Shown: positions 30,456 through 46,562 of the stretch, in pieces | How the letters are laid out: each line of letters opens with the position of its first letter | Numbering within the stretch: the stretch's first letter is position 1 | NCBI GenBank assembly: GCA_965230955.1 | Contig: OZ246404.1 | Span: 988,291-1,052,290 of the forward strand | Source of the DNA: an uncultured Candidatus Saccharibacteria bacterium | Lineage (GTDB): Bacteria; Patescibacteriota; CALEFQ01 | Direction of reading: 5' to 3' | Length of the DNA: 64,000 nucleotides | Made by a program: the position numbers and the translations under genes | Notes under the pieces: model-generated | What the model was told of the DNA's origin: nothing | The model's database searches: none | The model's input: the letters and a program-made list of their open reading frames with translations, nothing else

Positions 30456-33248
30456 TTACGGAGTCGTATTGGCTTTTTTCGGAGTCGCGGTGGCCGTCGG
30501 GGTCGGGATCGGCGTCACTCTGGGAGTGGCGGACGGAACCGGCGTCTCGGGCTGATCCAACTCGGTCCCGGTCGGGACCGGACGCCCGGACTCTACCGGC
30601 TCGGTCTGTTTGGGAATCTCTTGTTCCACGGTGGTCGGCTTTTTGCCTTCCAGTTCATCTATCTTGCTTTGGATACTCTTATTACCCGGATTTAGCTCCA
30701 GGACTTTCTTGAACATTTCCAAGGCTTTGTCTTTTTCGTTGCGTTGCAGGTATATCAGCCCCATGCTATAGAGCGCATTGGAATATTTATCGTTGTTTTC
30801 CAGAATTCTTTGGAAGATCTTTTCGGCCTCATCGTATTTTTTGTCGTTGTAGAGAATCCGGCCCATCTCGTAGGCGGCGTCGATATTATCTGGCGCCAGC
30901 AACAGCGCAATCTGCATTTCTTTGAGCGCGCCGGCGCGGTCGCCTTTTTTGTCCAAGGTCTGCGCCAACGAGAGATGAGCATCGAAATAATTTTGTTTCA
31001 ATTCAATGCCGCGATTGAATTTTTCGATCGCCAAATTGAGCAATTGCTCCGCTTCACCGGTCTTTTCCGGAGAGATGGTCGCATTTTTGTCCGCTTCACC
31101 TTTTTCTTGGGCCTGTTTCAGGGCTTGCTCCGCTTCGAGGATTACATGATCGCTCTTGATGACATAGGCTTTGCCCTGCATCACGACCGGAATGGGATTA
31201 TTCGGATCCAGTTCAATCGCCTTGTTGTATGAATCGATGATCCATTCATCCGCCCCGCGCACATAGAGGCCAGCGTTTTGGTAAATCGAAGCCAGGAATT
31301 CCCAACTGGCGACATTGCTGGGCTCGACCGTCTGGGCGGTTCGAGCGGCATCGATACCGAGTTTGACGGCGTTGCTGACATAGTTGATGTCAGGAGTTTC
31401 TTTGACGGCTTCCTTGTTCGCCTGGGCCATGAAAGTCTGAGCGGCGCCGCGGTGGTAAACCGCGCGGGATTTATTCAGAGTGGCGGCGGCGACAAAATCA
31501 TTCAGTGCGCCTTCCAAATCTTCGCCTTTGGCCAGTTTTTCCTGGCCGCTACGGTAATTAATATCCGCCAAATACATCTTGCCGACAAAATAGAAAGCGA
31601 CAATACCACCGATCAGTACGACCAGGAAGATGAAAGAAGTGATCAAAGCGACTTGCGGCGAATTGGCGAAGGACCAGCGTTTTTCCTTGGCGGCAGATTC
31701 CGAAGTTTTCAGATTAAGGATGGCCGCGATCGTGAACGCCATCAAAATCCACCAGAGAAAACTGAGCGTGGTATTGAAAAAGTAGAAAAAGCTGATGACG
31801 GTCAGACCCACCCAGGCGGAAAAAGGAGCCAGGAGCAGCGCCCATTTGTTTTCATCTTTTTCCCGCATCAATTGTTTGATCGCTTCCCAGACAGTCAGCA
31901 CCATGATCAAAGCCAGCAAGCCGGTGCCAATGACACCGATAGTGGCCAGGGAGTTGAAAAATTGGGTGCCGGCTTTGTCGAATCTCATACTCCAGAGAAT
32001 GGTGTCGTTGAATTGAACCGGGCGGTATTGGGTGAAATCCTGGAAAAATGTTTCCGGACCACTACCGAGCAGAGGTTTTTGCCCTATCGTGGCTCGATCG
32101 ATATCCCAAGAAATCGGACGGCCGAGAGAAAGCTCAGTCGGTAAATTGAGCTTGAAGAGGCCGGCGGTCGGGATCAGCAGAAAAGCGACGCCGAGCGCCA
32201 AGAAAACCAGCGGTAGCCAAGCCACGGCTTTCTTTTCTTTCATTTGCGGCATCCGCGTCACCACGATCGCGAAAATCATGATCATGGACGCAATCAGAGT
32301 AATCCAGCCGATCGAAATGGAAAGCAAGAAAAGAATGACGACGCCGAGAATCGAGGCAACGACACAGATAATTTTCCAAATTTTGTTTTCCCGCAAAGCC
32401 AGAACCACAATCGCGCCCGCACCCGCCGCCAGGAAAATCGACAGCATGGTGATCGACCCGCCCACTAAATTGAAAGCCGGGGTTTTGGCGAATTCCCAGG
32501 GCCAGATAAATACGCCCAGGATCTGAAGCAGGCTGGTCACCGCGACAATCAGGTAGCCGACAACGAAAGTGCGCAGGTATTCCTGCAGAGCCGTGAGCGA
32601 TTTGACGTTATTGAGCGCCACAAAAAACAAAATAACCAGCGCGGCAATTTCCACGAAACCGCCGTTGAAACGACCGTAAAAACCGAAGAAACTGGAAAAC
32701 ATATCCAGTGAAAAAAGCGTCGACGCCAAATAAAGAGCGAGGTAAACCAAAATAGGAATGGTCACCAGTGTTTTGGCCAGCGTCACTTGCTTGGCAATGA
32801 TAATTTTTACCAGCCAGAGCAGGAAAGCCACCACCGCCAGAATATAGAGCGCCGTCTGCTTGCTCAATTCAAAAGCTTCAAAGGTCAGCGGCGTGAAAAG
32901 CAGAGGGATGATCAGAAGAGCGAGATGCAAACAGACTTTGATTCCGCGATCGCACCAATTGGTTTTGGGAGAATCAGCGGGATCTGGCGGGTTTGCTTTT
33001 TCCGAGCGAATGACCTTTGGCGCTTCCGGTCTCGGACTTGATTCCTGATTATCTTTCTTTTTGAACCAGGCGAAAAAATCCGCCTTGTTTTTATCTTTTT
33101 TGTTTTCGGCAGAAGGCGCGACCGGGGTATCGACCACCGGTGATTTGTCGGCCACCATATCCATGGAACCTTTGGGTCGATTGGAAACCGTCGCATCGCC
33201 GACGCGAACTTTGACCGATTCGCCTTCGGAATTGAGTCTTTTGGCCAT
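30456..33248 (-). CDS. Wzy_C/O-antigen-ligase-like (PglL/WaaL-type) polytopic membrane protein with C-terminal TPR repeats
   Basis: Low-complexity N-terminus, ~12 TM helices with an LLGSGPETFFQDF periplasmic loop (GxGxxxF, Wzy_C-like), then at least 6 TPR repeats and a Pro/Thr-rich tail. Confidence 0.5.
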   Translation of the reverse strand: MAKRLNSEGESVKVRVGDATVSNRPKGSMDMVADKSPVVDTPVAPSAENKKDKNKADFFAWFKKKDNQESSPRPEAPKVIRSEKANPPDPADSPKTNWCDRGIKVCLHLALLIIPLLFTPLTFEAFELSKQTALYILAVVAFLLWLVKIIIAKQVTLAKTLVTIPILVYLALYLASTLFSLDMFSSFFGFYGRFNGGFVEIAALVILFFVALNNVKSLTALQEYLRTFVVGYLIVAVTSLLQILGVFIWPWEFAKTPAFNLVGGSITMLSIFLAAGAGAIVVLALRENKIWKIICVVASILGVVILFLLSISIGWITLIASMIMIFAIVVTRMPQMKEKKAVAWLPLVFLALGVAFLLIPTAGLFKLNLPTELSLGRPISWDIDRATIGQKPLLGSGPETFFQDFTQYRPVQFNDTILWSMRFDKAGTQFFNSLATIGVIGTGLLALIMVLTVWEAIKQLMREKDENKWALLLAPFSAWVGLTVISFFYFFNTTLSFLWWILMAFTIAAILNLKTSESAAKEKRWSFANSPQVALITSFIFLVVLIGGIVAFYFVGKMYLADINYRSGQEKLAKGEDLEGALNDFVAAATLNKSRAVYHRGAAQTFMAQANKEAVKETPDINYVSNAVKLGIDAARTAQTVEPSNVASWEFLASIYQNAGLYVRGADEWIIDSYNKAIELDPNNPIPVVMQGKAYVIKSDHVILEAEQALKQAQEKGEADKNATISPEKTGEAEQLLNLAIEKFNRGIELKQNYFDAHLSLAQTLDKKGDRAGALKEMQIALLLAPDNIDAAYEMGRILYNDKKYDEAEKIFQRILENNDKYSNALYSMGLIYLQRNEKDKALEMFKKVLELNPGNKSIQSKIDELEGKKPTTVEQEIPKQTEPVESGRPVPTGTELDQPETPVPSATPRVTPIPTPTATATPKKANTTP

Positions 33249-33434
33249 ATTTGTGTGTTATTTTTAGACAAACATAAAACTTGGTCTTTGAATATAATAG
33301 CACATTATTGCAGTAAAGAACAAATCGATGCTTCCTATCTCGAAATATTCGCTCTTGACAATATTGTAAAAATAAGGTAATACTGCGCTATAACGTGCTC
33401 TTTGAAAAAATTCCATCATGATAGGAGGTCATTG

Positions 33435-35189: not shown

Positions 35190-35330
35190 CAAGTAACAGG
35201 TATCAGGTAACAAGTATCAGGGAACAAGTAACAAAAAACAACCATTACTCTTAATTTTGCTCATATGTAATGGCTGTTATTCCAATTTGTTCCCTGTTAC
35301 CTGATACCTGTTACTTGTTAATTGATCACC
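35190..35330. repeat. (GTAACAR)n/(GTATCAG)n inverted-repeat element
   Basis: ~45-bp arms around a 50-bp spacer carrying its own CCATTAC/GTAATGG hairpin; lies between convergent gene ends. Confidence 0.8.
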
Positions 35331-38300
35331 AGCCAGTTCACCGGCAAATCGACCGGAGCCGGTTTCCCGTCGTTAGTCGAAATCACAAATCCCTGCCCCG
35401 CCCGTTTCTCTTTTACTTTTACGCCGGTATTGGCGTCATTGGAACTTTCGATCGTCAGGAAAATTCGGCTCGCCGCCGTCACGGAATTATTCGGGACGAA
35501 AATTTCCGACTTGTTGCCGGGGAGTGTCACACTACCAATCGCTTTATTTTCGCCTTCTTGGATTTCGATATCGCCGGCCGTGACTTTCTGGAAGACGGCT
35601 TCACCGAGACTGTCGATATGCCAAGTGGCGTTATTCGACCAAAGTGAAGAAGCTTTGAGCGTGCCGGCGATATCAATATCTCCGCCAATGGTAACTTTAC
35701 CGGTAATACCCAGATCGCCGACGACTTGTCCGGCCTGGAGCGCACCACTTTGACCGGTGCCGGCAGTCAGAGTTTCCAATTGTTTTTTGATATTGGTAAT
35801 CTCTTCGTTCATATCCACGATGGCCGCTTCTTGTTCCTTGGCCGATTGAATCAGCGGAGTGACCAAATTTCCATAAGAAACCGTTTCGGGCCGGCCCTGG
35901 GCGTCATAGCTGACATACGCCGGATTGACTTGTTGGACTTCTTCGGCGATCAGACCTTCCTGCTTGGCGCCGGGATATTTTTTGTATTCAAATGATACCG
36001 GGCGTAATTGATACAGCCAGGCGATATTATTTATATTTTTCACATTGTTCTTGTAGCGCAGGGAAGAAGAAACATAACCGATTGTACCGGCATTATCGAC
36101 ATACAGATCGCGATTGGTCACGCCTACCGTATCGCTGTAAGTCCCGACGGAATTAATAGAATCTACCGTCGCCCCGGCATCGATGTATAGGCCGTATTCG
36201 ATATAGTCTTCCGGATCGAGCCAAGCGACATAATCCGTCCCGCTATTACTGGCTTCATCCACCGCGATCGAAAGTCCCATATCATTACCGGCCGCCGCCG
36301 CATTCACGTCAATCGAGACTCCGTAATCCGCTGCGGCTCCGCCGGTAGTGACCAAGAAAGTACCGCCCGTATTCCCCAACGCCGCGCCGGTCGCCAATCC
36401 CACAACGCCGATATTGTAGCCAAGGCTGGTTTGGTCTACCAACCCGCCGATACCATTGAAATGAACGGTGCTATTGTAAGTGATATTGCCCCCCTGTGTT
36501 CCCACAACGCCATAGAGATCACTATTGCTATAGGAATCCCCGGCGGTTCCCCCCACCCAGCCGTTAACACCGGCGATAAAATTCGTCCCGGAATCTGTCG
36601 TCACCGTCCCTTGATTATAGAAACCAACATTGAGGACATCCATCCCGGCAGTGACATCTTTTAGTGTATAGCCATCTTTGTTGCCCAAAATAAATTTACC
36701 GGCATGATTTTCGGCATAGACGCCATTATAATCAAGTGACGCATCTAATCCGAGATAACCGGACATACCCAAAGCTTCATCAGTATCATACGTAGTATGC
36801 ACTGAAGCCGTCAGCATAGCAGCTTTAACCCCGATAGTTGATTTACCATCATTAGCAGTCCCGGGATTTCCTTGTACGCCTATTTTGTTACCGGTCACTG
36901 CCGACAATACGTCGAAATAACCACCCCAATTTGATCCTGACCCACTTTCAGCTGATCCATAGATAGCAACATTTTGGTTAGTATTATTACTGGCCCGGCC
37001 ATACACACCGGTATTATATCCCGCCGCCCCGGCACCGTTGGAATTTCCGGTTATGCCGGCGATAGTATCGGCAGTCGCCAGAGTACTGGAATTGACCGCG
37101 TAAAGAGCGGACTGATAATCACCGGCATTATAAGTAGATAGAAAATCAAATTGTGCGCCGTATTGTAAATTACTCGCATGGTCATACAAATCCAGCTTAT
37201 AAGAAGGCGTCGTATCACCGATTCCAACATAGCCACCATCAAAGATACCGGCATAATTAGCCGTGCCACCCGAGGCTGTAGCATAAACAGCCGTATTACT
37301 GGTTCCGGCACCAGTAACTGAACTGTAAACACCATATTTGGTACCAGAAGCCCCCGTTTCAGAAATATTGATTCCCCGACCACTCGCACTGGCATCAGCA
37401 ATATTCATGCCATAGGCAGCATTGGCAGCAACACCAAATCCGCCGCGAGTAGCTCGTAAGTAGCCATCAGTGGTCTCGGCTGTGCCCACCCCTAGTCCAC
37501 CGGTCACATACGCATCACCCGAAACATATAATGGATAAGTGGCGTTATGAGCAATATTGACTCCAATATATCTAAAATCAGCGTCGCGGTCAGTATATAT
37601 AGTCGCCACGCCCCCCATGAACAAAGTATTAACGATATTCACATTACCACTGTCGAAATACCCGGCCCAGTTGGTCGTCCCGCCGGAAGCGGTGCCGTAG
37701 ATTCCATAATTTGTGGCATTCCCCGTGCCCGAACCATATACACCATAACTGGCGACAGAAGAGCGACTGGTCGCTCCATAAACACCATACTGGGTCGCCG
37801 CCCGATCAATTGAGGCATAAAGGCCATAATTAACTGTCGCCGAGCCCGGAACCGAAAGATAAATACCATAATTAGTCCCGGTCGCGCCGGTTTGTTCGAT
37901 ATTGATTCCGCGCCCGTCGGCACTGGCCTCGGCCACATTTATACCATAAGCGGCATTAGCGGCCACGCCAATCCCGGCTCGGCTCGCCCGCAAGTAACCA
38001 TCAGTAGCTTCAGCGGTGCCGACACCAAGCCCGCCGACAATAAAAGCATCGCCATCGGCATAAATTGATTGGGTCGTCCCGCCGATCACATATAGGCCGT
38101 ATTCGGCATTGGCTCCCGCCTGGAAAAATCCGGCATAATCGGTACCGGCGGCACCCGTGACATTAAAACGCCCGCCGTAATTGCTCCCCGTGGCGCCGGA
38201 AGACACACCGTAAACACCGTAGTTTTCCGTGCCGGTATTCGATGCTGTTCCGTAGACTCCATAATTATCCGTCGCAGCGGCTCCGGCGACGGAGAAATAT

Positions 38301-41300
38301 CCGCCGTAATTTGTACCGGCCGCTCCGGTGATCACTGACGCCAGGATGCCGTAATCATCTCCGCTACCGCCGGCATTGAGCTCGAAATATCCGCCGTAGT
38401 TGGCGTCAGTATTGCCGGCATTATCGATGTAGCCAAAAACACCGTAGTCGCTACTGTCGCCGGCCACCCCGATGATACTGAAATACCCGCCATAGTTACC
38501 TGAAACTGACGTGCCGGGATCGTTCAATAACGCATAGACGCCATAATCATTCAATGTTCCTCCGCCATCGACAGTAAATCGACCGCCCGAATTTGAATTC
38601 GCTCCTTGCGCCGCCCCCGCCACTCCGACCGATTCATCCCCGCCGTTTGGCAAAGCCACGTTTCCATAAATACCATAGGCGGTGAGACTTTGTCCGTTGG
38701 CGTTAAAAGTATTCGTCGCGTAGATCGAGTAATTGATAGAGGCTTCAAAAGCACCGGTACCACTGAAAGAATTATAGAAACCGTATTGACTGACTTCATG
38801 TGATCCGGAAACCGTTGTCGCCATATACATACCGCGCGCGCCATTGACCGTCGCTCCCAAGGTCGCTTCTCCGTGAAAAGCTTCGTTGTAATTGGTCGCC
38901 CCGCTCGCCGAAGCGTAAATAGCATAATTATTATAAGTATTGGTCGATCCGTCCGCCACGGAATAAATCCCATACGCCGTCGGGACAGCAGTGCCATCGG
39001 CACCGGTAGTTCTATTTCGAACATACAAACCAGTCGTCGTCGCCGTGGCTCCACTCGCGACACTTCCGCCGAAAGAATCGTAAATTCCGTATTGAGTCAA
39101 TCCGTTATTAATTCCATCGTTGGAAGTGGTACTGAAATAATAGCCTTGGACATCACCCAATGTCGCCGACAGCGCGGCGCTTCCGTGGAAAGCTTCATTA
39201 ATTCCGGCGGTACTCCCGGAAACAGTCGTGTGAATCCCGTAATTAGCCGTACCGTTGCCGCTGACTGTAAATTGCCCGCCATAATTATATACGGCATTCG
39301 CCACCACGGCGTTAACACCGTAATTAGTCGACTCACCGGCAACTGCGTTTGAAATATTTAAATACACGCCATTGTTCACCGTCGATGCGCCGGTCAAACT
39401 GATATAATTACCGTAAATTGTACCCGTCGCCCCGGTCATCGCCGTGTAGACGCCGTAACCGTTGTTCGACGCGTTGGCGATATTGAGCGAGCGTCCCGCC
39501 GTCGGCGTCGTGCCGATACTCATGATCCCGGAAGCGACCGAAACATTGTTAGAGTAAGTAGAATTTGGATAGAGGTAATCGCTCCCGACATCGTCCAGCC
39601 ACAAACCGGTTCCGCCGGAAGCCAGCGAGATCAAAGCGTCTATCACGCCTCGATCCGCCGCTCCAAACGCCGCTTCAAACGCCGCGGTGTTGTCGGTCAG
39701 GGCAAACGGAATCGCGGTCGTGATTAGCGCGTCTTGGAAATATATTTTGTCGGTGGAAAGTAATGTTATGTCATTCGTCGCTCCGGTGGAGCCGATAGTC
39801 AGTCCCGCCGTGGCGGTGATATTTGTCCCGACGCCGGTGATATTTTGTGAACCCATGGTCAAGGCGGCGTTGGTAATATCGAGACCGTTTTCCGCGTCAA
39901 CATTGCCGGTGAAATTCGCCGTGCCGTCAACGTACAATTCATCGCTCGTCGCTCCGCTGGCGATATAGACGCCGTATGTCGTACCGGAGAAATATCCGCC
40001 GTAATTTGTCGTCGCGCCGCTCGCCGTCGAATACAAACCGTAGTTCGTCGTCGACGCGCCCGTCGCTTCCAGGTACCCGCCATAATTGGCGTCACCTGTT
40101 CCGGTCACGCTCAGCACTCCGCCGTAATTAGTACCGGTGCCGGCATTATTGTTTCGAACTCTTATGCCCCAATCCACTCCCGCTGTACCGGTTCCAATAC
40201 TGACATCTAATCCGGTATTTGTATCACTTCCACTTCCGTCAGTCAGAAAAACAGTGGCTCCGTAATTATTACCACCGCCGGCTGTAGAAATACCCAAGAT
40301 AGCTCCATAATCATCGCCAGCATTACCGACCTGGACGCGTCCGTAAATTCCGACATCACTGCCGGCGCCGCCCGTCCCAACATCAAAGTAACCGGCATAA
40401 TTAGACGTAGCTCCAGTGGCCACTATATATGATCCGTAATTAGTGGTAGCTGCGCCGGACACGCTCACTTCCATGCCATAATTTGTCGTCGACGCGCCGG
40501 TGGCTGAAATATATTGACCATGAATTGTACCAGTCGCTCCGGTCATTGCCGTGTAGACGCCGTAACCGTTGTTCGACGCGTTGGCGATATTGAGCGAGCG
40601 TCCCGCCGTCGGCGTCGTGCCGATACTCATGATCCCGGAAGCGACCGAAACATTGTTAGAGTAAGTAGAATTTGGATAGAGGTAATCGCTCCCGACATCG
40701 TCCAGCCACAAACCGGTTCCGCCGGAAGCCAGCGAGATCAAAGCGTCTATCACGCCTCGATCCGCCGCTCCAAACGCCGCTTCAAACGCCGCGGTGTTGT
40801 CGGTCAGGGCAAACGGAATCGCGGTCGTGATTAGCGCGTCTTGGAAATATATTTTGTCGGTGGAAAGTAATGTTATGTCATTCGTCGCTCCGGTGGAGCC
40901 GATAGTCAGTCCCGCCGTGGCGGTGATATTTGTCCCGACGCCGGTGATATTTTGTGAACCCATGGTCAAGGCGGCGTTGGTAATATCGAGACCGTTTTCC
41001 GCGTCAACATTGCCGGTGAAATTCGCCGTGCCGTCAACGTACAATTCATCGCTCGTCGCTCCGCTGGCGATATAGACGCCGTATGTCGTACCGGAGAAAT
41101 ATCCGCCGTAATTTGTCGTCGCGCCGCTCGCCGTCGAATACAAACCGTAGTTCGTCGTCGACGCGCCACTGACTGAAATATAATTTCCATAAATAGTTCC
41201 GACCGTCCCGGTCATCGCCGTATAGACACCGTAACCGTTGTCGGCCGCGTTGGCGATATTGAGAGAGCGAGCACTGCTCGGCGCCACGCCGATTCCCACC

Positions 41301-42619
41301 ACCCCGCCGTTGGCATAAATATTTCCGCCGGTAAATTCCCAGCGGTCATCGGTGGTATAAGTGACTGATCCGGTCGCATCATTGGAGGCATACATATTGA
41401 GGATCGCATTGGTCGCCGCGCCGGCCGAGCCCTCACCGATCCGCACCGTGTTTAAATTTTCATCAACGGAAAAAGGCGCGACCAAACTATTCGCGCCGAT
41501 AGCAAAATCATCGGTCAGGGTATAGGGATGAATAATTATCCCCGTTTGCTCCCAGAGAAAAGGCTGATAAGAAATATCCGTGCCGTCGGACATCAAAACG
41601 GTATTGGCTAATCCGGCGCCGAGCCGGGTCGTGGTATTGGCGGCATTGCGGTAAATAATATCGCCGCGGGTTGTCATCGGATCCAGGAAACCGGAACTTT
41701 GGTTTTGCCAAGTGACATTGCCGCTGCCGTCGGTAATCAAAATCTGATTATTCGATCCCCGGGTGGTGGGAAAAGTATACGACGTCACACCAGTGCCAAA
41801 AGTGACTGCCCCAATCAAGTTTGTCGTATTGGAAACCGAAAGCGTGCTGGATAAATCAGTCGCGCCGGTCACGCCCAGGGTTGAAGACAAGGTAGCCGCT
41901 CCGGTCACGATGAGAGTGGAAGATAACGTGGTCGCGCCGGTAACGCCCAAAGTGGAGTCGAATGAAACCGCCCCGCTGACATGTAATCTCCCGTTCGGGA
42001 TCGAGACATCTTGCGATACCCCGGCTTTGGGATGTAAATTTCCGCTGCTATCTTCCCACATCCCGGCCGCCGGTATCGCCGTAGTATTTAAATAATTTAG
42101 CGCGTCGAGAATACCTCTTTCCGCCACCGGGAAAGAATCAATATTCGTATCAGTCAACGAGCCCGGCACGCCATAGACTCTTTCGGTATTCAGCGAATAA
42201 CCAACTCCGCCGATCCGACGCCGAGGCGACATTTCACCGTCGCCATTTACTTCGATCCCCAGATAATATACTCCGCTGTTGAAATCCAGATTGATCGCAT
42301 TGAGTGAGCCGAGATTAACATTGAAAACTCCGTCTTCCACCGTCACTTTGTTTCCGCCGATGTGATTCTCCGACCACATGGCTACCCCGCCTGAAGAAAC
42401 GTTGTAAATCCGAAAATTCATGTCATATACCCCATCGGTAACATTGGTACCGTCGGGATTGGTCAGCCGCCCCTGGAAATTAAACTCTTTAACATAGCCG
42501 GCGCGGACGTTTACCGGGGTATCAAAAAAGCCTACCAGTGAAAAAATCACCGCCAGAATAGCTAAAACTAGGGCTATAACGCCAAAAACTTGGCTTTTTG
42601 CCTTTTTTGTTTGAGCCAT
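35318..42619 (-). CDS. giant (2433 aa) membrane-anchored Thr/Ser/Gly/Asn/Tyr-rich surface protein with C-terminal tail-fibre-type intramolecular chaperone (peptidase S74) domain
   Basis: N-terminal signal-anchor helix; long NYGGYF/GATGT-type low-complexity beta repeats; C-terminus SSSLRYKNNVKNI...WLYQLRPVSFEYK...GLIAEEVQQVNPAYV matches the endosialidase/tail-fibre auto-cleaving chaperone domain. Confidence 0.7.
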   Translation of the reverse strand: MAQTKKAKSQVFGVIALVLAILAVIFSLVGFFDTPVNVRAGYVKEFNFQGRLTNPDGTNVTDGVYDMNFRIYNVSSGGVAMWSENHIGGNKVTVEDGVFNVNLGSLNAINLDFNSGVYYLGIEVNGDGEMSPRRRIGGVGYSLNTERVYGVPGSLTDTNIDSFPVAERGILDALNYLNTTAIPAAGMWEDSSGNLHPKAGVSQDVSIPNGRLHVSGAVSFDSTLGVTGATTLSSTLIVTGAATLSSTLGVTGATDLSSTLSVSNTTNLIGAVTFGTGVTSYTFPTTRGSNNQILITDGSGNVTWQNQSSGFLDPMTTRGDIIYRNAANTTTRLGAGLANTVLMSDGTDISYQPFLWEQTGIIIHPYTLTDDFAIGANSLVAPFSVDENLNTVRIGEGSAGAATNAILNMYASNDATGSVTYTTDDRWEFTGGNIYANGGVVGIGVAPSSARSLNIANAADNGYGVYTAMTGTVGTIYGNYISVSGASTTNYGLYSTASGATTNYGGYFSGTTYGVYIASGATSDELYVDGTANFTGNVDAENGLDITNAALTMGSQNITGVGTNITATAGLTIGSTGATNDITLLSTDKIYFQDALITTAIPFALTDNTAAFEAAFGAADRGVIDALISLASGGTGLWLDDVGSDYLYPNSTYSNNVSVASGIMSIGTTPTAGRSLNIANASNNGYGVYTAMTGATGTIHGQYISATGASTTNYGMEVSVSGAATTNYGSYIVATGATSNYAGYFDVGTGGAGSDVGIYGRVQVGNAGDDYGAILGISTAGGGNNYGATVFLTDGSGSDTNTGLDVSIGTGTAGVDWGIRVRNNNAGTGTNYGGVLSVTGTGDANYGGYLEATGASTTNYGLYSTASGATTNYGGYFSGTTYGVYIASGATSDELYVDGTANFTGNVDAENGLDITNAALTMGSQNITGVGTNITATAGLTIGSTGATNDITLLSTDKIYFQDALITTAIPFALTDNTAAFEAAFGAADRGVIDALISLASGGTGLWLDDVGSDYLYPNSTYSNNVSVASGIMSIGTTPTAGRSLNIANASNNGYGVYTAMTGATGTIYGNYISLTGASTVNNGVYLNISNAVAGESTNYGVNAVVANAVYNYGGQFTVSGNGTANYGIHTTVSGSTAGINEAFHGSAALSATLGDVQGYYFSTTSNDGINNGLTQYGIYDSFGGSVASGATATTTGLYVRNRTTGADGTAVPTAYGIYSVADGSTNTYNNYAIYASASGATNYNEAFHGEATLGATVNGARGMYMATTVSGSHEVSQYGFYNSFSGTGAFEASINYSIYATNTFNANGQSLTAYGIYGNVALPNGGDESVGVAGAAQGANSNSGGRFTVDGGGTLNDYGVYALLNDPGTSVSGNYGGYFSIIGVAGDSSDYGVFGYIDNAGNTDANYGGYFELNAGGSGDDYGILASVITGAAGTNYGGYFSVAGAAATDNYGVYGTASNTGTENYGVYGVSSGATGSNYGGRFNVTGAAGTDYAGFFQAGANAEYGLYVIGGTTQSIYADGDAFIVGGLGVGTAEATDGYLRASRAGIGVAANAAYGINVAEASADGRGINIEQTGATGTNYGIYLSVPGSATVNYGLYASIDRAATQYGVYGATSRSSVASYGVYGSGTGNATNYGIYGTASGGTTNWAGYFDSGNVNIVNTLFMGGVATIYTDRDADFRYIGVNIAHNATYPLYVSGDAYVTGGLGVGTAETTDGYLRATRGGFGVAANAAYGMNIADASASGRGINISETGASGTKYGVYSSVTGAGTSNTAVYATASGGTANYAGIFDGGYVGIGDTTPSYKLDLYDHASNLQYGAQFDFLSTYNAGDYQSALYAVNSSTLATADTIAGITGNSNGAGAAGYNTGVYGRASNNTNQNVAIYGSAESGSGSNWGGYFDVLSAVTGNKIGVQGNPGTANDGKSTIGVKAAMLTASVHTTYDTDEALGMSGYLGLDASLDYNGVYAENHAGKFILGNKDGYTLKDVTAGMDVLNVGFYNQGTVTTDSGTNFIAGVNGWVGGTAGDSYSNSDLYGVVGTQGGNITYNSTVHFNGIGGLVDQTSLGYNIGVVGLATGAALGNTGGTFLVTTGGAAADYGVSIDVNAAAAGNDMGLSIAVDEASNSGTDYVAWLDPEDYIEYGLYIDAGATVDSINSVGTYSDTVGVTNRDLYVDNAGTIGYVSSSLRYKNNVKNINNIAWLYQLRPVSFEYKKYPGAKQEGLIAEEVQQVNPAYVSYDAQGRPETVSYGNLVTPLIQSAKEQEAAIVDMNEEITNIKKQLETLTAGTGQSGALQAGQVVGDLGITGKVTIGGDIDIAGTLKASSLWSNNATWHIDSLGEAVFQKVTAGDIEIQEGENKAIGSVTLPGNKSEIFVPNNSVTAASRIFLTIESSNDANTGVKVKEKRAGQGFVISTNDGKPAPVDLPVNWLVIN
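39441..40060. repeat. perfect 620-bp direct repeat, copy 1 (inside the giant gene)
   Basis: Identical to 40548..41167 (offset 1107 bp); the tracked ORFs 39687..39968 and 40794..41075 are identical 93-aa products. Confidence 0.9.
40548..41167. repeat. perfect 620-bp direct repeat, copy 2
   Basis: See copy 1; flanks diverge at 39434/40541 and 40061/41168. Confidence 0.9.
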
Positions 42620-42679
42620 AATCTAAATATAGGCATATTACCAGGGCTCTTGCACCCGATAATCCACTTAATATTATAT

Positions 42680-42711
42680 CAAAAAACCGCCCAGATGAAA
42701 AGGGGGGCGGA
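42680..42711 (-). terminator. intrinsic terminator after the 774-aa gene
   Basis: CCGCCCAGATGAAAAGGGGGGCGG with a U-run on the minus strand. Confidence 0.5.
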
Positions 42712-42724
42712 GGTGTGGACAACA

Positions 42725-42800
42725 ATCAAGTAACAAGTATCAGGTAACAAATTGGAAAAACAACAATTTTGTTACTTGTTCCCTGTTACTTGTTACCTGG
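42725..42800. repeat. (GTAACAR)n inverted-repeat element
   Basis: Between the 774-aa gene and the giant gene. Confidence 0.8.
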
Positions 42801-42801
42801 T

Positions 42802-45126
42802 TTAAGAATCCGGGCCGCTTAAATCCTCTAAATTACGGTCTTTCTTCTCCTCCACTTTTTTGATCGTTTCCTGCATACCGGGAGTTTCAGGAGGAGGCGG
42901 CGGCGCAGCGTTTGGGGATGTCGGGGCATAGGGTAGCCCGGTGGCAGGATCCAGCGGAACATTGAAACGCACTACCCCATCGCGCTTAACGTTGAAATCT
43001 TCACCGCGATAGCGATTGAATCCTTTTTCAATTTTGGAAGGGAAAGCATACTGCTCGCGATCAACCGTCAGACGATAAGTTTCCGGCCCGACCAAGAAAC
43101 CAAATCGTCCGTGGCGATCGGTCACTTGCGTTTCCAGTAAATCATTGTACCGTCGATTAAATAATCTGACGACCGCCAGTCCCACCGGTTTCCCGGTCTT
43201 GGCATCATAAACCATGCCCCAGGGCTTGCTCTTTTGACCCTGAACGACCCGTCCGAAAAATATAAATAAAACGATATGAAGAATAAGGAAGATCATAGTA
43301 TAAATTGACGGGCTGATCCAAAGACACACCGCCGCGATAACCGGGCCGAGTATGGCCAAGATCAAATTGACCCGACGATGCAAGTAACGCAAGACCACAT
43401 TGCGATTGGTCATCGCCATATCTTGCTTGAGCATCGGATCTAAAGGCACGCTGACGGTAATAACAGTTTTACCGGAAGCGATTTCAATCGGCTCGCCGAA
43501 ATAAAGATCGTCATAGCCGGCATCGTGAGTTTTGCCCCGCATTTTTAGCGAGGGGAAGGCGAAGTTCGGCTTGGTGACCGTGATGCGGAATTTTCCTTCC
43601 TTGGTCAAAAAGGTAAATCGTCCCTGGCGATCAGTCACGCGAGTGCTGACCAATTTTCCCGTCTGCGCATCAAGCAAGCGTACCAGCGCCAGATCAACCG
43701 GAACTTTGGAAAGCGCATTATACACCACGCCCCAACAACGGCGGCGCCGTCCGGCAAAGAAGAGAAAAGGCTCGGTAAAAAGATACCAGAAAGACAGCAG
43801 GGCGGTACCGACATTGGCCATACCAGCCGCGGTCAGCAAGTTGGCGATCGCCAAAGCGGTCAGACCGGGAACGACAACCGACTGATTGATCAATTGAGTA
43901 ACCGGATTTTCTCTGAATAATTCGATATCCCGGAGCAAATCTCGCAGGGCGGTAATTATCAGTTCCGGAATCGTCAGGGGCGGATTCACCGGCGGGACAT
44001 CAATTCCCGGAATGGTGATCGTGGCCGGCAACGATAAATCGGTCGAAATATTATTACAGTTTCGCGCCATCACGTTATAAACATAAGTCTGGCCGGCCAC
44101 CAAACCATAGTGCGCCCGGCTTAACGCCGTCGACCAGTAAGAAGCGCCGCTGACCGATCCGTCGGGCTGTAAAAAAGCGCCGTTGACCAAAACCGCAAAT
44201 TCCGTCCCGGCCGGATTGCCGTTGGCCGCGATGGAAATTGTCGCCGTATATGTTCCGTCATCGGCGGCGACATAAGAGACACCGGGCTGACCCGGGACGT
44301 TCGCCAACGTACACCGCGTCAAGGTCGCCTCGGCGTTTTCTACGCCGCAAATATTTCGCTGTTTGGAATGCCAGGTATAAGCGGTGTTAAAATTTAATCC
44401 CGTGTCGCGCCAGCTGTTATCCCCGCTCTGCCAACCGGATTCGTTTACAACGCCGCGCCGGAAAAAATATCCGCTCAGCTCTATGCTATGCCGCGGAAAA
44501 ATCGGGACGGAGAGATCCATGTAATCCACTCCCGGACTGGCAAAAAGTCCCCGCGTTCCGACCAGAGTACAGCCGGAAGCAAAGCCGGAAGGGATACTGT
44601 TTCCGAAAGGATTAAAAGCCAAAACTTGTTCGGTGTATTTTTGGTTTTCATCCAGTCCGGTTTGGGTAATGGAGCTGATATTGGCTTGATTGACCACCTC
44701 AACGACGGTAGCCGAATCATCTTCCAGCAGGAAACCTTCTTCATCGGCCGACCGATCGGTAAAATTCCATTTTATAGCAGACGCGGACAAGCCTTCCGGT
44801 ATCCCGATTTCCGGCTTATTCGGCGGTTTGAAATAGAGATAACCGGCTTTGACGATATAATTGGGCGAGGTAAATTTTCCCGTGACAAAATAATTCAGCG
44901 CCTCATCGACCGAAAAATCTCCGGAATCAAGCTGACCGCCCGATTCATCGATATCTTCAACTTTCATCCGGTAATTCGGACTGGAATAACCGACGGCACC
45001 GGCTCGATCATTACTCCAAACAAAACCCAGGCTGACCGAAAGCAGGCAAATTAAAAAACCAATGCGCCACCAGCGGGCGAATGGATTTTTAATTCGCACC
45101 AGATTGTTTTTTTTATTTACCAACAC
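42802..45126 (-). CDS. membrane protein with two carboxypeptidase-regulatory-like (prealbumin-fold) domains and a Pro-rich C-terminus
   Basis: GTG start; N-terminal signal/TM; large extracytoplasmic domain; two repeats of GxVYxAxTGKPVxLAxVRL...TQVTDRxGRFxFL...YxxTVxKxxYAFPS, each following TM helices; PPPPPETP tail. Confidence 0.5.
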   Translation of the reverse strand: MLVNKKNNLVRIKNPFARWWRIGFLICLLSVSLGFVWSNDRAGAVGYSSPNYRMKVEDIDESGGQLDSGDFSVDEALNYFVTGKFTSPNYIVKAGYLYFKPPNKPEIGIPEGLSASAIKWNFTDRSADEEGFLLEDDSATVVEVVNQANISSITQTGLDENQKYTEQVLAFNPFGNSIPSGFASGCTLVGTRGLFASPGVDYMDLSVPIFPRHSIELSGYFFRRGVVNESGWQSGDNSWRDTGLNFNTAYTWHSKQRNICGVENAEATLTRCTLANVPGQPGVSYVAADDGTYTATISIAANGNPAGTEFAVLVNGAFLQPDGSVSGASYWSTALSRAHYGLVAGQTYVYNVMARNCNNISTDLSLPATITIPGIDVPPVNPPLTIPELIITALRDLLRDIELFRENPVTQLINQSVVVPGLTALAIANLLTAAGMANVGTALLSFWYLFTEPFLFFAGRRRRCWGVVYNALSKVPVDLALVRLLDAQTGKLVSTRVTDRQGRFTFLTKEGKFRITVTKPNFAFPSLKMRGKTHDAGYDDLYFGEPIEIASGKTVITVSVPLDPMLKQDMAMTNRNVVLRYLHRRVNLILAILGPVIAAVCLWISPSIYTMIFLILHIVLFIFFGRVVQGQKSKPWGMVYDAKTGKPVGLAVVRLFNRRYNDLLETQVTDRHGRFGFLVGPETYRLTVDREQYAFPSKIEKGFNRYRGEDFNVKRDGVVRFNVPLDPATGLPYAPTSPNAAPPPPPETPGMQETIKKVEEKKDRNLEDLSGPDS

Positions 45127-45272
45127 AAGAAAACGGATTTTATTCTCCGAACTCTAGCCTATTCATTATAACACGATTTTTGAAACTTGGCGATAAAACA
45201 GGGCGGCCACGCGGGGCCGCCCCTACTTCTATCTATTATCTTAAATCTTAATATCTTAACGTCTTAATTTTC

Positions 45273-45713: not shown

Positions 45714-46562
45714 CTAAAATTTTCCCAGCCAGATAATTACCAGACTGAGCACAATCAAATAAATCGAAAAAACGTATAGCTTTTGTCGGCGCAAAAATTT
45801 TAACAGCCAGTAAATAGCCAGCCAGCCGGAAAAAGCCGCGACGAGAAAACCGACGATCAAAGACAGCAAATCATTGTTCGTGATTGAACTGCTTTGCAGT
45901 TCAATCAGTCCCAATCCTCCGGCCGCCAGTATCACGGGCGCCGAAAGCAGGAAGGAAAACCGAGCCGCGCCTTCACGGCTCAAGCCGGAGAAAACTCCCC
46001 CACTGATCGTCAGGCCGGATCGCGACAAACCCGGCAGTATCGCCAGGGCCTGCAAAACGCCGATTCCAAACGCTCCCATCCAGCCCGGTAAAATCGGACG
46101 CTCGCCCCGGGAACCGCGAGCGGCACGCCAGCGCAAAAACAATTCCACCGCGGCGAGCAAAACCGCCGTGATAAGGAAAAACATAGTGACGAACAACAGA
46201 CTATCGAAAACTTTGGCCAGCTGTTCCTGGAAAAGATAGCCGATCACCAGAGCCGGAACTGTGCCCAGCGCCAGCAGGCCGAATAATTTGGCGTCTCGGC
46301 GATCGATTTTTTCCCGTTGGGCCGGAGAAAAAACCCCGGCGATCGCTCGTCCGATAACGATCAAAATCCGCCGCCACTCGTTCCAGAAATAAATCAACAC
46401 CGCCAGCAAGGTCCCCAGATGCAAAATCGTATCAAAAGCAATCGAAGGCGAATCCCAGCCCAAAAGCTTTGGTACCGCCACCAAATGGCCGGAACTGGAT
46501 ACGGGAATGAATTCAGTCAGGCCCTGGACCAGACCGAGAATGATAGCTTGGAATAGAAGCAT
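45714..46562 (-). CDS. uppP: undecaprenyl-diphosphatase
   Basis: BacA/UppP N-terminal motif LGLVQGLTEFIPVSSSGHL; 8 TM helices. Confidence 0.85.
   Translation of the reverse strand: MLLFQAIILGLVQGLTEFIPVSSSGHLVAVPKLLGWDSPSIAFDTILHLGTLLAVLIYFWNEWRRILIVIGRAIAGVFSPAQREKIDRRDAKLFGLLALGTVPALVIGYLFQEQLAKVFDSLLFVTMFFLITAVLLAAVELFLRWRAARGSRGERPILPGWMGAFGIGVLQALAILPGLSRSGLTISGGVFSGLSREGAARFSFLLSAPVILAAGGLGLIELQSSSITNNDLLSLIVGFLVAAFSGWLAIYWLLKFLRRQKLYVFSIYLIVLSLVIIWLGKF

What the first reader, a model, noticed from the sequence alone, without database searches (positions are those of the whole stretch)
42802..45126. Membrane protein with two TM-tethered carboxypeptidase-regulatory-like domains upstream of the giant gene
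The protein reads signal anchor, ~400-aa extracytoplasmic domain, TM helices, CarbopepD_reg-like domain (VVYNALSKVPVDLALVRLLDAQTGKLVSTRVTDRQGRFTFL...FAFPS), further TM helices, a second copy (MVYDAKTGKPVGLAVVRLFNRRYNDLLETQVTDRHGRFGFL...YAFPS) and a poly-Pro tail. Prealbumin-fold domains positioned on cytoplasmic loops between TM segments are unusual. Its position as the first gene of the giant-protein transcription unit suggests an anchor or export partner.
Basis: partly seen in the sequence, partly recalled or inferred. Interest (0 to 1): 0.5.

Follow-up and report, generated by a model that had tools for sequence, protein, structure and literature searches.

The report
Membrane anchor protein beside giant fibre
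This gene encodes a surface protein of an ultra-small (CPR/Patescibacteria) bacterium whose conserved tail crosses the membrane three times and probably places two small beta-sandwich domains inside the cell. It belongs to a previously undescribed, widely conserved gene cluster that also encodes giant, phage-like surface fibres, so it is a good candidate for the part that holds those fibres on the cell.

Summary
ORF 42802..45126 (-) encodes a 774-aa protein with this order: signal peptide, about 370 aa outside the cell, hydrophobic stretch, CarboxypepD_reg domain, TM hairpin, second CarboxypepD_reg domain, Pro-rich tail.

- **Ectodomain:** a 60-aa 'S-x-N-Y' segment followed by three FnIII domains.
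- **C-terminal module:** the last ~370 aa form a conserved module found at the C-terminus of at least 2,400 protein clusters, with all named hits in Patescibacteria. It occurs on proteins up to 3,858 aa and on pilin-like proteins.
- **Topology:** flanking charges across the family (13.3 K/R on the domain side, 1.0 on the other) put both beta-sandwiches in the cytoplasm. Coevolution adds only weak support, and the second hydrophobic helix is unresolved.
- **Gene cluster:** related genomes carry D (Wzy_C-TPR), A (small secreted), B (WxLIP-like), X, then C (giant fibre with a MAT-like N-domain).
  - 56% of X genes have C downstream, and 59% of C genes have X upstream.
  - All 37 testable X–C clusters carry the A-type segment, either as a separate gene or, as here, fused to X.
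- **Transcription:** X and the giant gene are probably transcribed separately. The 182-bp spacer holds a terminator-like hairpin and a promoter-like site.

Best reading: X is a load-bearing membrane base or adaptor of a CPR surface-fibre apparatus. An export role has no support. No publication describing the module or cluster was found.

The parts
44995..45126 (-). Signal peptide, aa 1-44 (basic N-tail, hydrophobic core aa 20-38, AGA|V cleavage-type site)
   Evidence: Hydrophobicity peak at aa 20-38. An A-x-A type site is conserved in orthologues just before G-[YLF]-S-S (sequences, read by eye). Cleavage itself is inferred.
44806..44994 (-). A-type 'S-x-N-Y' segment, aa 45-107, at the mature N-terminus
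   Evidence: The HMM of neighbour family A matches X aa 21-107 (E 1e-6). It is unstructured in AF2 (pLDDT 30-46). It is present as a separate A gene or fused to X in 37 of 37 X–C clusters.
44002..44805 (-). Three tandem fibronectin-III-like domains, aa ~108-375, with four conserved Cys
   Evidence: AF2 pLDDT above 90. Foldseek against fibronectin FnIII fragments gives E 7e-14. Pfam fn3 is only weak.
43879..43974 (-). Juxtamembrane helix with the acidic [DN]-N-P-x-V-[EQ] motif, aa 385-416
   Evidence: AF2 helices 386-405 and 408-433. Columns 406-411 are acidic across the family.
43816..43878 (-). h1, transmembrane helix, aa 417-437 (P420 98% conserved)
   Evidence: No charged residues across the family. 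<H> 0.62. DCA pairs 414-605 and 421-602 at one end, and 436-591 and 433-594 at the other.
43753..43803 (-). h2, second membrane-embedded helix, aa 442-458 (F-T-[QE]-P motif, P453 invariant); span status unresolved
   Evidence: DCA pairs 452-617, 433-445 and 445-627.
43432..43749 (-). Basic cluster RRRR (aa 460-463), then W-G and CarboxypepD_reg domain 1 (aa 465-565)
43249..43371 (-). TM hairpin: TM4 aa 586-604, S-P-S turn (P606 96% conserved), TM5 aa 608-626
   Evidence: Hydrophobicity peak 2.49. AF2 pLDDT above 90. Strong antiparallel DCA pairs 602-611, 594-617 and 598-610.
42946..43221 (-). Second basic stretch, then W-G and CarboxypepD_reg domain 2 (aa 636-727)
   Evidence: Pfam best stretch at aa 637-694. 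hhalign of unit 1 against unit 2 gives E 2e-28. AF2.
42805..42945 (-). Pro-rich linker and conserved C-terminal peptide (..KK.R.L.[DE]LSGPDS-COOH), aa 728-774
   Evidence: Tails of orthologues P0001-P0009. Other subfamilies end in ..SIFG..NIFG or ..KFG.
45165..45223 (-). Intrinsic-terminator-like hairpin (45200..45223), then a promoter-like site (45165..45193), upstream of X
   Evidence: These are consensus matches only.
42620..42801 (-). X-giant spacer: 73-nt hairpin (42727..42799), GC stem plus T6 (42681..42710), promoter-like site with TG-extended -10 (42673..42701)
   Evidence: RNA fold -58.4 kcal/mol, z -4.9.
35318..42619 (-). Downstream partner gene: 2,433-aa fibre protein. It has an N-terminal signal anchor, a conserved ~130-aa beta-rich domain (nt 42095..42619) and a C-terminal Peptidase_S74 domain (nt 35912..36067).
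   Evidence: Pfam S74 32.4 bits against a cut-off of 22. Weak NCBIfam Bdello_MAT_N match. Only the N-terminal ~150 aa are shared with the giants of other loci.
30456..33248 (-). Cluster-associated membrane protein D: ~12 TM segments (weak Wzy_C match) plus TPR repeats
   Evidence: Homologues occur in 18 related loci.

Best explanation
X is a polytopic envelope protein of a Patescibacteria bacterium.

**Outside the cell (shown):**
- After a signal peptide comes a ~60-aa S-x-N-Y segment. It is homologous to the N-terminus of a small secreted protein, 'A', that is a separate gene in most relatives.
- Three FnIII domains and a juxtamembrane helix follow.

**C-terminal module (shown):**
- The last ~370 aa form a conserved module: helix h1, a second membrane-embedded helix h2, a basic cluster, a transthyretin-like beta-sandwich, a tight TM hairpin, a second basic cluster and beta-sandwich, a Pro-rich linker and a conserved terminal peptide.

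**Topology (inferred from the charge distribution):**
- h1 crosses the membrane once and h2 does not. Both beta-sandwiches and the tail are therefore cytoplasmic, lying flat against the inner face of the membrane.

**Gene cluster (shown):**
- X belongs to a conserved cluster: D (Wzy_C-TPR), A, B (WxLIP-like, membrane-anchored), X, then C.
- C is a giant fibre. The giants share only their N-terminal signal anchor and a ~130-aa beta-rich domain. Here the fibre ends in an S74 trimerisation chaperone domain.

**Mechanism (inferred):**
- X is the membrane base or adaptor of this fibre apparatus.
- Its ectodomain, through the A-type segment, pairs with the fibre's conserved N-terminal domain or with its partners.
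- Three membrane helices and two folded cytoplasmic beta-sandwiches act as a rivet that resists being pulled out of the membrane.
- The terminal peptide offers a cytoplasmic docking site.
For: **ORF and domains:**

**Module family:**
- 2,412 representatives at E<=1e-30.
- The module is C-terminal on proteins of 300-3,858 aa with varied ectodomains (fn3, Cys repeats, Hint, prepilin).

**Topology:**
- Mean K+R over 325 sequences is 4.88 after h2, 4.18 before TM4 and 4.21 after TM5.
- It is 0.82 in the N-flank of h1 (which has D+E 2.04) and 0.22 in the TM4-TM5 turn.
- DCA pairs 414-605, 421-602 and 414-601 place the N-end of h1 beside the TM4/5 turn. Pairs 436-591, 433-594 and 434-628 place its C-end on the domain side.
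- The ectodomain has four conserved Cys and the module has none.
- The tails are disordered and end in conserved peptides.

**Cluster:**
- A is present in 57 of 70 loci, B in 50 of 70, and C in 38 of 68.
- In the reverse direction, X lies upstream of 27 of 46 C genes.
- A–B and B–X gaps have medians of 5 and -1 bp.
- The A-type segment is separate (34) or fused to X (3, including this window) in 37 of 37 clusters.
- B is fused to X in 5 representatives.
- The B profile hits the solved structure EfmWxLIP1 at E 1.5e-5.
- The giants share only their N-terminal ~150 aa.
- The Bdellovibrio MAT paper states that the surface partner of the conserved fibre N-domain is unknown (PMC10769870).
Against: - No direct evidence exists for contact between X and the fibre.
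- 44% of X genes lack a C neighbour, and pilin-type module proteins sit in unrelated contexts.
- X and C appear to have separate promoters.
- Every close structural relative of the beta-sandwich is extracytoplasmic.
- h2 is hydrophobic enough to span the membrane (<H> 0.58). DCA shows an antiparallel h1-h2 ladder (433-445, 428-456), which is what a hairpin would give.
- An averaged near/far DCA test did not separate the two topologies (bootstrap 17 of 30).
- The AF2 coordinates could not be inspected.
- The rivet function is pure inference.
Confidence: 0.5

Rival explanations
1. All-outside topology. h1 and h2 form a full TM hairpin, so the ectodomain, both beta-sandwiches and the tail are all extracytoplasmic. 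The sandwiches would then act as a wall-proximal stalk or cell-wall-binding unit, with two helical hairpins as the anchor.
For: - The structural neighbours of the domain are all secreted, surface or lumenal proteins: carboxypeptidase D, SdrD B, CnaB, SlaB and NOMO.
- h2 has <H> 0.58.
- DCA shows an h1-h2 ladder (437-442, 433-445, 432-451, 428-456).
- Pro-rich and coiled-coil tails also occur in Gram-positive wall-spanning regions (general knowledge).
Against: - It would put about 14 K/R per protein on the outside and about 0.2 in the two cytoplasmic turns. That is an extreme violation of the positive-inside rule, conserved over 325 sequences.
- DCA pairs 414-605, 421-602, 436-591 and 445-627 do not fit it.
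- The h1-h2 break in AF2 is a single residue, whereas the true hairpin has a 3-residue S-P-S turn.
Confidence: 0.15
2. Independent adhesin. X is simply one of many CPR surface proteins that use a generic C-terminal anchor module. It lies next to the giant gene because surface-protein genes cluster, and it has no physical partnership with the fibre.
For: - The module occurs on thousands of proteins, including giants themselves and pilin-like proteins in unrelated neighbourhoods.
- X–C spacers are long and carry their own promoter-like and terminator-like signals.
- No protein fuses the C N-domain with the module.
Against: - Adjacency holds in both directions at 56-59%, across several CPR classes and independent metagenomes.
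- Gene order D-A-B-X-C is fixed.
- The giants conserve only their N-terminal domain, as expected of a docking element.
- The A-type segment is present in 37 of 37 clusters and is fused to X exactly where gene A is missing.
Confidence: 0.25
3. Assembly platform. A, B and X form a monoderm analogue of a chaperone-usher or secretion system. B would be a two-Ig-domain chaperone, A a subunit, and X the membrane platform that polymerises or exports A and the fibre.
For: - A, B and X form a tightly coupled operon.
- B is related to WxLIP, a two-Ig-domain protein that binds its partner by strand insertion (PMC10599100).
- The A-type segment does not fold on its own.
- Conserved polar residues lie inside the membrane: Q/E452, H/Q617 and N429.
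Against: - There are only three to four helices per chain.
- No channel-like or ATPase domain is present.
- Residue 452 is mostly Gln, so it is not a conserved protonation site.
- A, B, X and C all carry ordinary Sec-type signals.
- The window lineage has lost B yet keeps X and C.
Confidence: 0.1

Closest known systems
WxL / Csc cell-surface protein clusters of Firmicutes: small WxL protein, large WxL protein and WxLIP (DUF916-DUF3324-TM helix)
   Same: Both are operons of several Sec-exported surface proteins: a small secreted protein, a large protein with variable N-terminal binding domains, and a two-Ig-domain protein with a C-terminal TM helix. Neighbour family B is a detectable WxLIP homologue (profile against PDB EfmWxLIP1, E 1.5e-5; Pfam WxLIP_PGBD E 1.3e-3).
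   Different: - No WxL domain was detected in A or X.
- The large protein is held by a polytopic membrane module, not by a peptidoglycan-binding WxL domain.
- The cluster also includes a giant fibre and a Wzy_C-TPR protein.
- This window lacks B altogether.
Bdellovibrio MAT (mosaic adhesive trimer) fibres and phage S74 tail fibres (PMC10769870)
   Same: The downstream gene has the MAT layout: signal sequence, conserved ~130-aa beta-rich N-domain, long variable fibre, and a C-terminal S74 chaperone/protease domain. The conserved N-domain is presumed to dock on a cell-surface element.
   Different: - The MAT_N match is weak (22.5 bits against a cut-off of 60).
- The host is a monoderm-like CPR cell.
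- In Bdellovibrio the docking partner is unknown, and no X-like gene is reported there.
- X itself is not a MAT protein.
C-terminal anchoring of Gram-positive adhesins (LPXTG/sortase signal: hydrophobic stretch plus basic tail)
   Same: A variable N-terminal ectodomain is followed by a constant C-terminal hydrophobic stretch and an Arg/Lys cluster.
   Different: - No LPXTG motif lies before h1 (sequence read directly).
- About 315 further residues follow the basic cluster, including two folded domains and a TM hairpin.
- Anchoring would therefore be to the membrane, not covalent to the cell wall.
TM-tethered CarboxypepD_reg / transthyretin-like domains such as NikL-type ECF subunits and NOMO
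   Different: In those proteins the domain faces the periplasm or lumen. Here the charge rule puts two copies on the cytoplasmic face, between and after TM helices.
Mycoplasma gliding and attachment adhesins (P1, Gli349), which have TM anchors and Pro-rich cytoplasmic tails (recalled from general knowledge, not tested)
   Same: A large surface adhesin in a wall-poor, host-dependent bacterium, with a Pro-rich cytoplasmic tail thought to contact internal partners.
   Different: No sequence or fold relationship was tested or is expected. This is an analogy only.

Membership tests
CarboxypepD_reg (Pfam PF13620) domain | Whole-protein score above Pfam's gathering score | tested here: met
   55.1 bits against 32.3, E 9.9e-15, two stretches.
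CarboxypepD_reg (Pfam PF13620) domain | Transthyretin-like seven-stranded beta-sandwich fold | tested here: met
Fibronectin type III domains (ectodomain) | FnIII beta-sandwich fold in tandem | tested here: met
   Foldseek E 7e-14 to 1e-11 against fibronectin, titin and contactin FnIII tandems. Model pLDDT above 90.
Fibronectin type III domains (ectodomain) | Pfam fn3 sequence score above the gathering score | tested here: not met
   13.2-15.8 bits against 25.
WxL / Csc cell-surface cluster | A WxLIP (DUF916-DUF3324-TM helix) gene in the cluster | tested here: not met
   No B-type ORF occurs anywhere in the 64-kb window. In 50 of 70 related loci a B gene is present, and its profile hits EfmWxLIP1 at E 1.5e-5.
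WxL / Csc cell-surface cluster | Proteins carrying a WxL domain | tested here: not met
   Pfam found no WxL family in X or in two A proteins. The A profile has no PDB hit.
MAT / S74 trimeric fibre (the downstream gene, not X) | C-terminal Peptidase_S74 chaperone domain | tested here: met
   32.4 bits against 22, at aa 2185-2236. The Ser-x4-Lys motif reads SSLRYK (by eye).
MAT / S74 trimeric fibre (the downstream gene, not X) | Conserved ~130-aa beta-rich N-domain after the signal sequence (NCBIfam Bdello_MAT_N) | tested here: inconclusive
   22.5 bits against a cut-off of 60, E 7.9e-5. A conserved N-domain is shared by 46 related giants.
Type IV (pre)pilin-like proteins | N-terminal G|F-T-L-x-E cleavage/methylation motif | tested here: not met
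   Absent from X. By contrast, 23 of 153 module-bearing relatives match a strict pilin pattern, and several more appear to by eye.
Sortase-anchored (LPXTG) surface proteins | LPXTG motif directly before a C-terminal hydrophobic stretch and a short basic tail that ends the protein | tested here: not met
   There is no LPXTG motif before aa 417, and 311 residues follow the basic cluster (sequence).
CPR C-terminal 'h1-h2-CPD-hairpin-CPD' module family (defined here) | Full-length match to the 317-position module profile, located at the C-terminus | tested here: met
   X aa 406-754 covers profile positions 1-313. There are 2,412 representatives at E<=1e-30.
CPR D-A-B-X-C surface-fibre cluster (defined here) | A C-family giant gene at +1/+2, and an A-type segment present | tested here: met
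   The window has C at +1 and the A-type segment fused to X. B is absent.

The most novel reading that the evidence does not exclude
The module is a trans-membrane coupling device specific to CPR bacteria. It would physically link host-binding fibres, adhesins and pilin-like proteins on the outside to a cytoplasmic partner, through two cytoplasmic transthyretin-like domains and a conserved terminal peptide.

On this reading, D-A-B-X-C is a previously unknown monoderm fibre-assembly and anchoring machine. B would act as a chaperone-like protein, the A-type segment as a strand-donating adaptor, X as the base and C as the exchangeable host-recognition fibre. X-type proteins would then be the long-sought 'surface element' that holds MAT-like fibres on the cell.
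Probability: 0.2. Interest if true: 0.85.

Novelty: new variant of a known kind. Interest (0 to 1): 0.6.

Why it matters
CPR/Patescibacteria are mostly obligate episymbionts, and how they recognise and hold on to host cells is largely unknown beyond type IV pili.

- **Candidate attachment apparatus.** This work defines a large, unannotated membrane-anchor module. It also defines a conserved five-gene cluster that joins the module to giant fibres of phage-tail-fibre type. That makes it a concrete candidate for the host-attachment apparatus of a major CPR clade.
- **An open question becomes testable.** The Bdellovibrio MAT study left open what the conserved N-terminal domain of such fibres binds on the cell (PMC10769870). 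X, A and B are now candidates.
- **An unusual domain location.** If the topology is confirmed, this would be an unusual case of transthyretin-like/CarboxypepD_reg domains working on the cytoplasmic face of a membrane.

Tried and rejected
1. **Homologue search with the ectodomain alone.** The third homologous-protein search returned nothing, despite known orthologues. That search was wasted.
3. **Topology reporters from natural variants.**
   - C-terminal extensions beyond the module carry no TM segment or known domain, only disordered tails.
   - An apparent member without a signal peptide (P0118) proved to be the C-terminal fragment of a protein of about 2,300 aa, split by a 100-N scaffold gap.
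4. **Averaged DCA test.** A near-versus-far depth score did not separate the two h1 orientations (17 of 30 bootstraps). Only individual top-ranked pairs are informative, so DCA counts as weak evidence.
5. **Hypothesis that h1/h2 is a duplicate of the TM4/TM5 hairpin.** hhalign aligns only the basic cluster, W-G and beta-sandwich, not the hydrophobic parts.
6. **Search for A and B genes in the window.** None were found, apart from the A-type segment inside X.
7. **PDB profile searches for A and for the fibre N-domain.** No hits.
8. **Literature searches for the module or the CPR cluster.** Nothing was found.
9. **Rfam and tRNA scans.** Nothing relevant lies near the locus.
10. **Proton-relay or stator-like idea for E452/H617.** Rejected, because position 452 is Gln in 69% of members.
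Full report
**1. Observation**

The ORF is exactly as reported: 42802..45126 on the minus strand, 774 aa, GTG start.

- Pfam CarboxypepD_reg scores above its gathering threshold (55.1 against 32.3 bits, E 1e-14), in two stretches.
- Hydrophobic segments lie at aa 20-38, 417-458 and 586-626.
- An AF2 model of aa 385-774, built on 32 diverse homologues, has mean pLDDT 83.5. It shows helices 386-405, 408-433, 435-457, 574-604 and 608-628, and two beta-sandwiches with pLDDT above 90.
- The two 'basic cluster, W-G, beta-sandwich' units are internal duplicates (hhalign E 2e-28). The alignment does not extend into the hydrophobic segments.

**2. Ectodomain**

- By the A-x-A rule and conservation among orthologues, the signal peptide probably ends at AGA|V (aa 44/45). 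This is read from the sequence and is an inference.
- An AF2 model of aa 37-411 (10 orthologues, pLDDT 80) leaves aa 37-101 unstructured (pLDDT 30-46).
- It folds aa ~108-375 into three beta-sandwich domains. These match tandem FnIII fragments of fibronectin, titin and contactins (Foldseek E 7e-14).
- Four Cys are conserved in the ectodomain. None is conserved in the module.

**3. The C-terminal module is a large family**

- Homologues are Patescibacteria proteins: Uhrbacteria, Magasanikbacteria, Buchananbacteria, Falkowbacteria, Andersenbacteria and Nomurabacteria.
- Only the last ~320 aa are shared. The N-terminal parts vary: fn3, Cys-rich DUF4215 repeats, Hint, Big-like domains, and a prepilin N-terminus in 23 of 153 proteins by a strict pattern, with several more by eye.
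- A 317-position profile finds 7,573, 4,423 and 2,412 cluster representatives at E<=1e-3, 1e-10 and 1e-30 among 1.84 billion proteins. The module sits at the C-terminus of proteins up to 3,858 aa.
- Pfam and NCBIfam recognise only the generic beta-sandwich.
- Literature searches found no description of it.

**4. Topology**

Charges across 325 module sequences:

| Region | Mean K+R | Note |
|---|---|---|
| N-flank of h1 | 0.82 | D+E 2.04, so acidic |
| Stretch 417-458 | 0 | uncharged |
| After h2 | 4.88 | |
| Before TM4 | 4.18 | |
| TM4-TM5 turn (S-P-S, P606 96% conserved) | 0.22 | |
| After TM5 | 4.21 | |

- That gives 13.3 positive charges on the side of the beta-sandwiches and 1.0 on the other side. 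By the positive-inside rule, the sandwiches are cytoplasmic.
- The N-terminal parts carry Sec signal peptides, prepilin leaders and conserved cysteines, so they are outside. The stretch 417-458 must therefore cross the membrane an odd number of times.
- h1 (aa 417-437) is a good TM helix.
- h2 (aa 442-458) carries an invariant Pro453, Gln/Glu452 and the highest hydrophobic moment of the four segments. It is best read as a re-entrant or half-buried helix in the inner leaflet.

My mean-field DCA (325 sequences, Neff 281) gave these results:

- It recovers the TM4/TM5 hairpin strongly (602-611, 594-617, 598-610).
- It gives 414-605, 421-602 and 414-601 at one end of h1, and 436-591, 433-594 and 434-628 at the other. 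This is as expected if h1 spans from the outer side to the domain side.
- It gives 452-617 as a mid-membrane polar contact.
- It also gives an h1-h2 antiparallel ladder (433-445, 428-456).
- An averaged depth test did not discriminate between the two orientations.

I therefore treat DCA as weak support and the charge rule as the main argument. I estimate about 0.8 probability that the sandwiches are cytoplasmic.

- An apparent relative without a signal peptide, which could have tested this, is a fragment of a gene split by a scaffold gap.
- Tails after the second sandwich are disordered and Pro/Glu/Lys-rich, with no TM segment. They often end in a conserved peptide..LEDLSGPDS in the window's subfamily, and ..SIFG..NIFG or ..KFG in others.

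**5. Genomic context**

Close orthologues keep the window's order: TsaD, TPR, PilB, DHH, BacA, TsaE, X, giant.

In 78 loci from species-representative genomes (195 relatives found in total, all apparently CPR), gene maps and clustering of neighbours reveal a conserved cluster:

| Gene | Description | Usual position relative to X |
|---|---|---|
| A | ~247 aa, secreted | -2 |
| B | ~311 aa, signal peptide, C-terminal TM helix and Lys tail | -1 |
| X | module-bearing protein | 0 |
| C | median 1,422 aa, up to 3,218 aa | +1 or +2 |
| D | ~765-aa TPR membrane protein | often nearby |

- Where enough sequence was available, A is present in 57 of 70 loci, B in 50 of 70 and C in 38 of 68.
- In the reverse test, metagenome contigs were found using the C N-domain. 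Of 46 C genes with at least 3.5 kb upstream, 27 have X within two genes, 28 have B and 29 have A.
- The window's giant gene belongs to family C. The giants share only their first ~150 aa, a signal anchor plus a beta-rich domain with Y-Q-G-K-L and T-P-R-K-R motifs.
- That domain weakly matches NCBIfam Bdello_MAT_N.
- The window's giant also has a C-terminal Peptidase_S74 domain.
- B is a WxLIP homologue (profile against PDB EfmWxLIP1, E 1.5e-5; weak Pfam WxLIP_PGBD match; background in PMC10599100).
- A and the C N-domain have no PDB match by sequence.

**6. How the window differs**

- It has no A or B gene.
- X aa 21-107 matches the N-terminal S-x-N-Y region of A (E 1e-6).
- Among 37 X–C clusters with a complete X and enough upstream sequence, the A-type segment is a separate gene in 34 and is fused to X in 3: the window and its two orthologous loci. 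That is 37 of 37 in total, and the two forms are mutually exclusive.
- B is fused to X in five cluster representatives.
- These fusions and the tight A–B–X spacing (median gaps 5 and -1 bp) argue for a physical complex.

**7. Transcription**

- Upstream of X lie a strong terminator-like hairpin and then a promoter-like site.
- The 182-bp X–giant spacer folds strongly (z -4.9). It has a 73-nt hairpin after the stop codon and a GC stem followed by T6, overlapping a promoter-like site with a TG-extended -10.
- X–C spacers are long in all loci (median 146 bp).
- Adjacency is therefore conserved, but co-transcription is doubtful.

**8. Interpretation**

*Shown:*
- a real, conserved, polytopic protein;
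- a large CPR-specific anchor module;
- a conserved D-A-B-X-C cluster;
- complementary fusion or separation of the A segment.

*Inferred:*
- the sandwiches are cytoplasmic;
- X contacts the fibre base;
- X has a mechanical 'rivet' role and a cytoplasmic docking peptide.

The Bdellovibrio MAT study notes that the conserved fibre N-domain must bind an unidentified surface element (PMC10769870). X, A and B are candidates for that role in CPR.

The rival readings are an all-outside topology, an independent adhesin, and an assembly platform. They are weighed in the rival explanations section.

**9. Comparison with known systems**

- The cluster resembles Firmicute WxL/Csc clusters through B and the overall layout. 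It resembles MAT or phage S74 fibres through C.
- No WxL domain is present, and the anchoring is to the membrane.
- The h1-h2-sandwich-hairpin-sandwich module has no described counterpart.
- I rate it a new variant of known kinds of surface-adhesin systems, with moderate to high interest.

Noticed in passing
window 35318-42619 (-): The giant fibre gene contains an internal duplication with a 1,107-bp period. Segments 39402-39701 and 40509-40808 are 98% identical. Its S74 catalytic motif reads SSLRYK. This looks like recent repeat expansion within the fibre shaft.
   Followed up: partly
window 30456-33248 (-): A 930-aa protein with about 12 TM segments, a weak Wzy_C (O-antigen ligase) match (E 0.006) and C-terminal TPR repeats. 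Homologous TPR genes of about 765 aa recur beside the A-B-X-C cluster. It may be an O-oligosaccharyltransferase or ligase acting on the fibre.
   Followed up: partly
window 33402-35117 (+): A 571-aa multi-TM ORF on the opposite strand, between the giant gene and the TPR gene. It has no Pfam match. Its shape resembles a GT-C type glycosyltransferase, but this was not tested.
   Followed up: no
window 42620-42801 (-): The X–giant spacer is highly structured (-58.4 kcal/mol, z -4.9). A 73-nt imperfect hairpin made of GTAACAAGTAAC-type repeats lies directly after the X stop codon. A GC stem plus T6 follows, overlapping a promoter-like site. It could be a terminator or a regulatory element for the giant gene.
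   Followed up: partly
L010 and L011 (loci of P0110 and P0149); window 45714-46562: Pilin-type module proteins sit next to genes for undecaprenyl-phosphate handling (PAP2, BacA/UppP, a DedA/VTT-family protein) and YceG. The window's X is two genes from BacA. This may be coincidence or an envelope-biogenesis link.
   Followed up: no
L025 (Falkowbacteria contig CAVZGV010000003.1): Three tandem genes of 980+, 2,552 and 2,287 aa each end in the module. Here the anchor is fused directly to giant proteins rather than encoded beside them.
   Followed up: no
L005, L006, L007 upstream regions: Arrays of six to eight small T4SS_pilin (PF18895) genes and a solute-binding protein lie a few kb upstream of the A-B-X cluster in Magasanikbacteria-type contigs.
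   Followed up: no
Genome contigs record titles; L091: Many contigs that clearly belong to CPR genomes are titled 'uncultured Gammaproteobacteria bacterium'. These look like placeholder names. Several 'short' family members are fragments of giant genes broken by scaffold gaps, for example P0118.
   Followed up: partly
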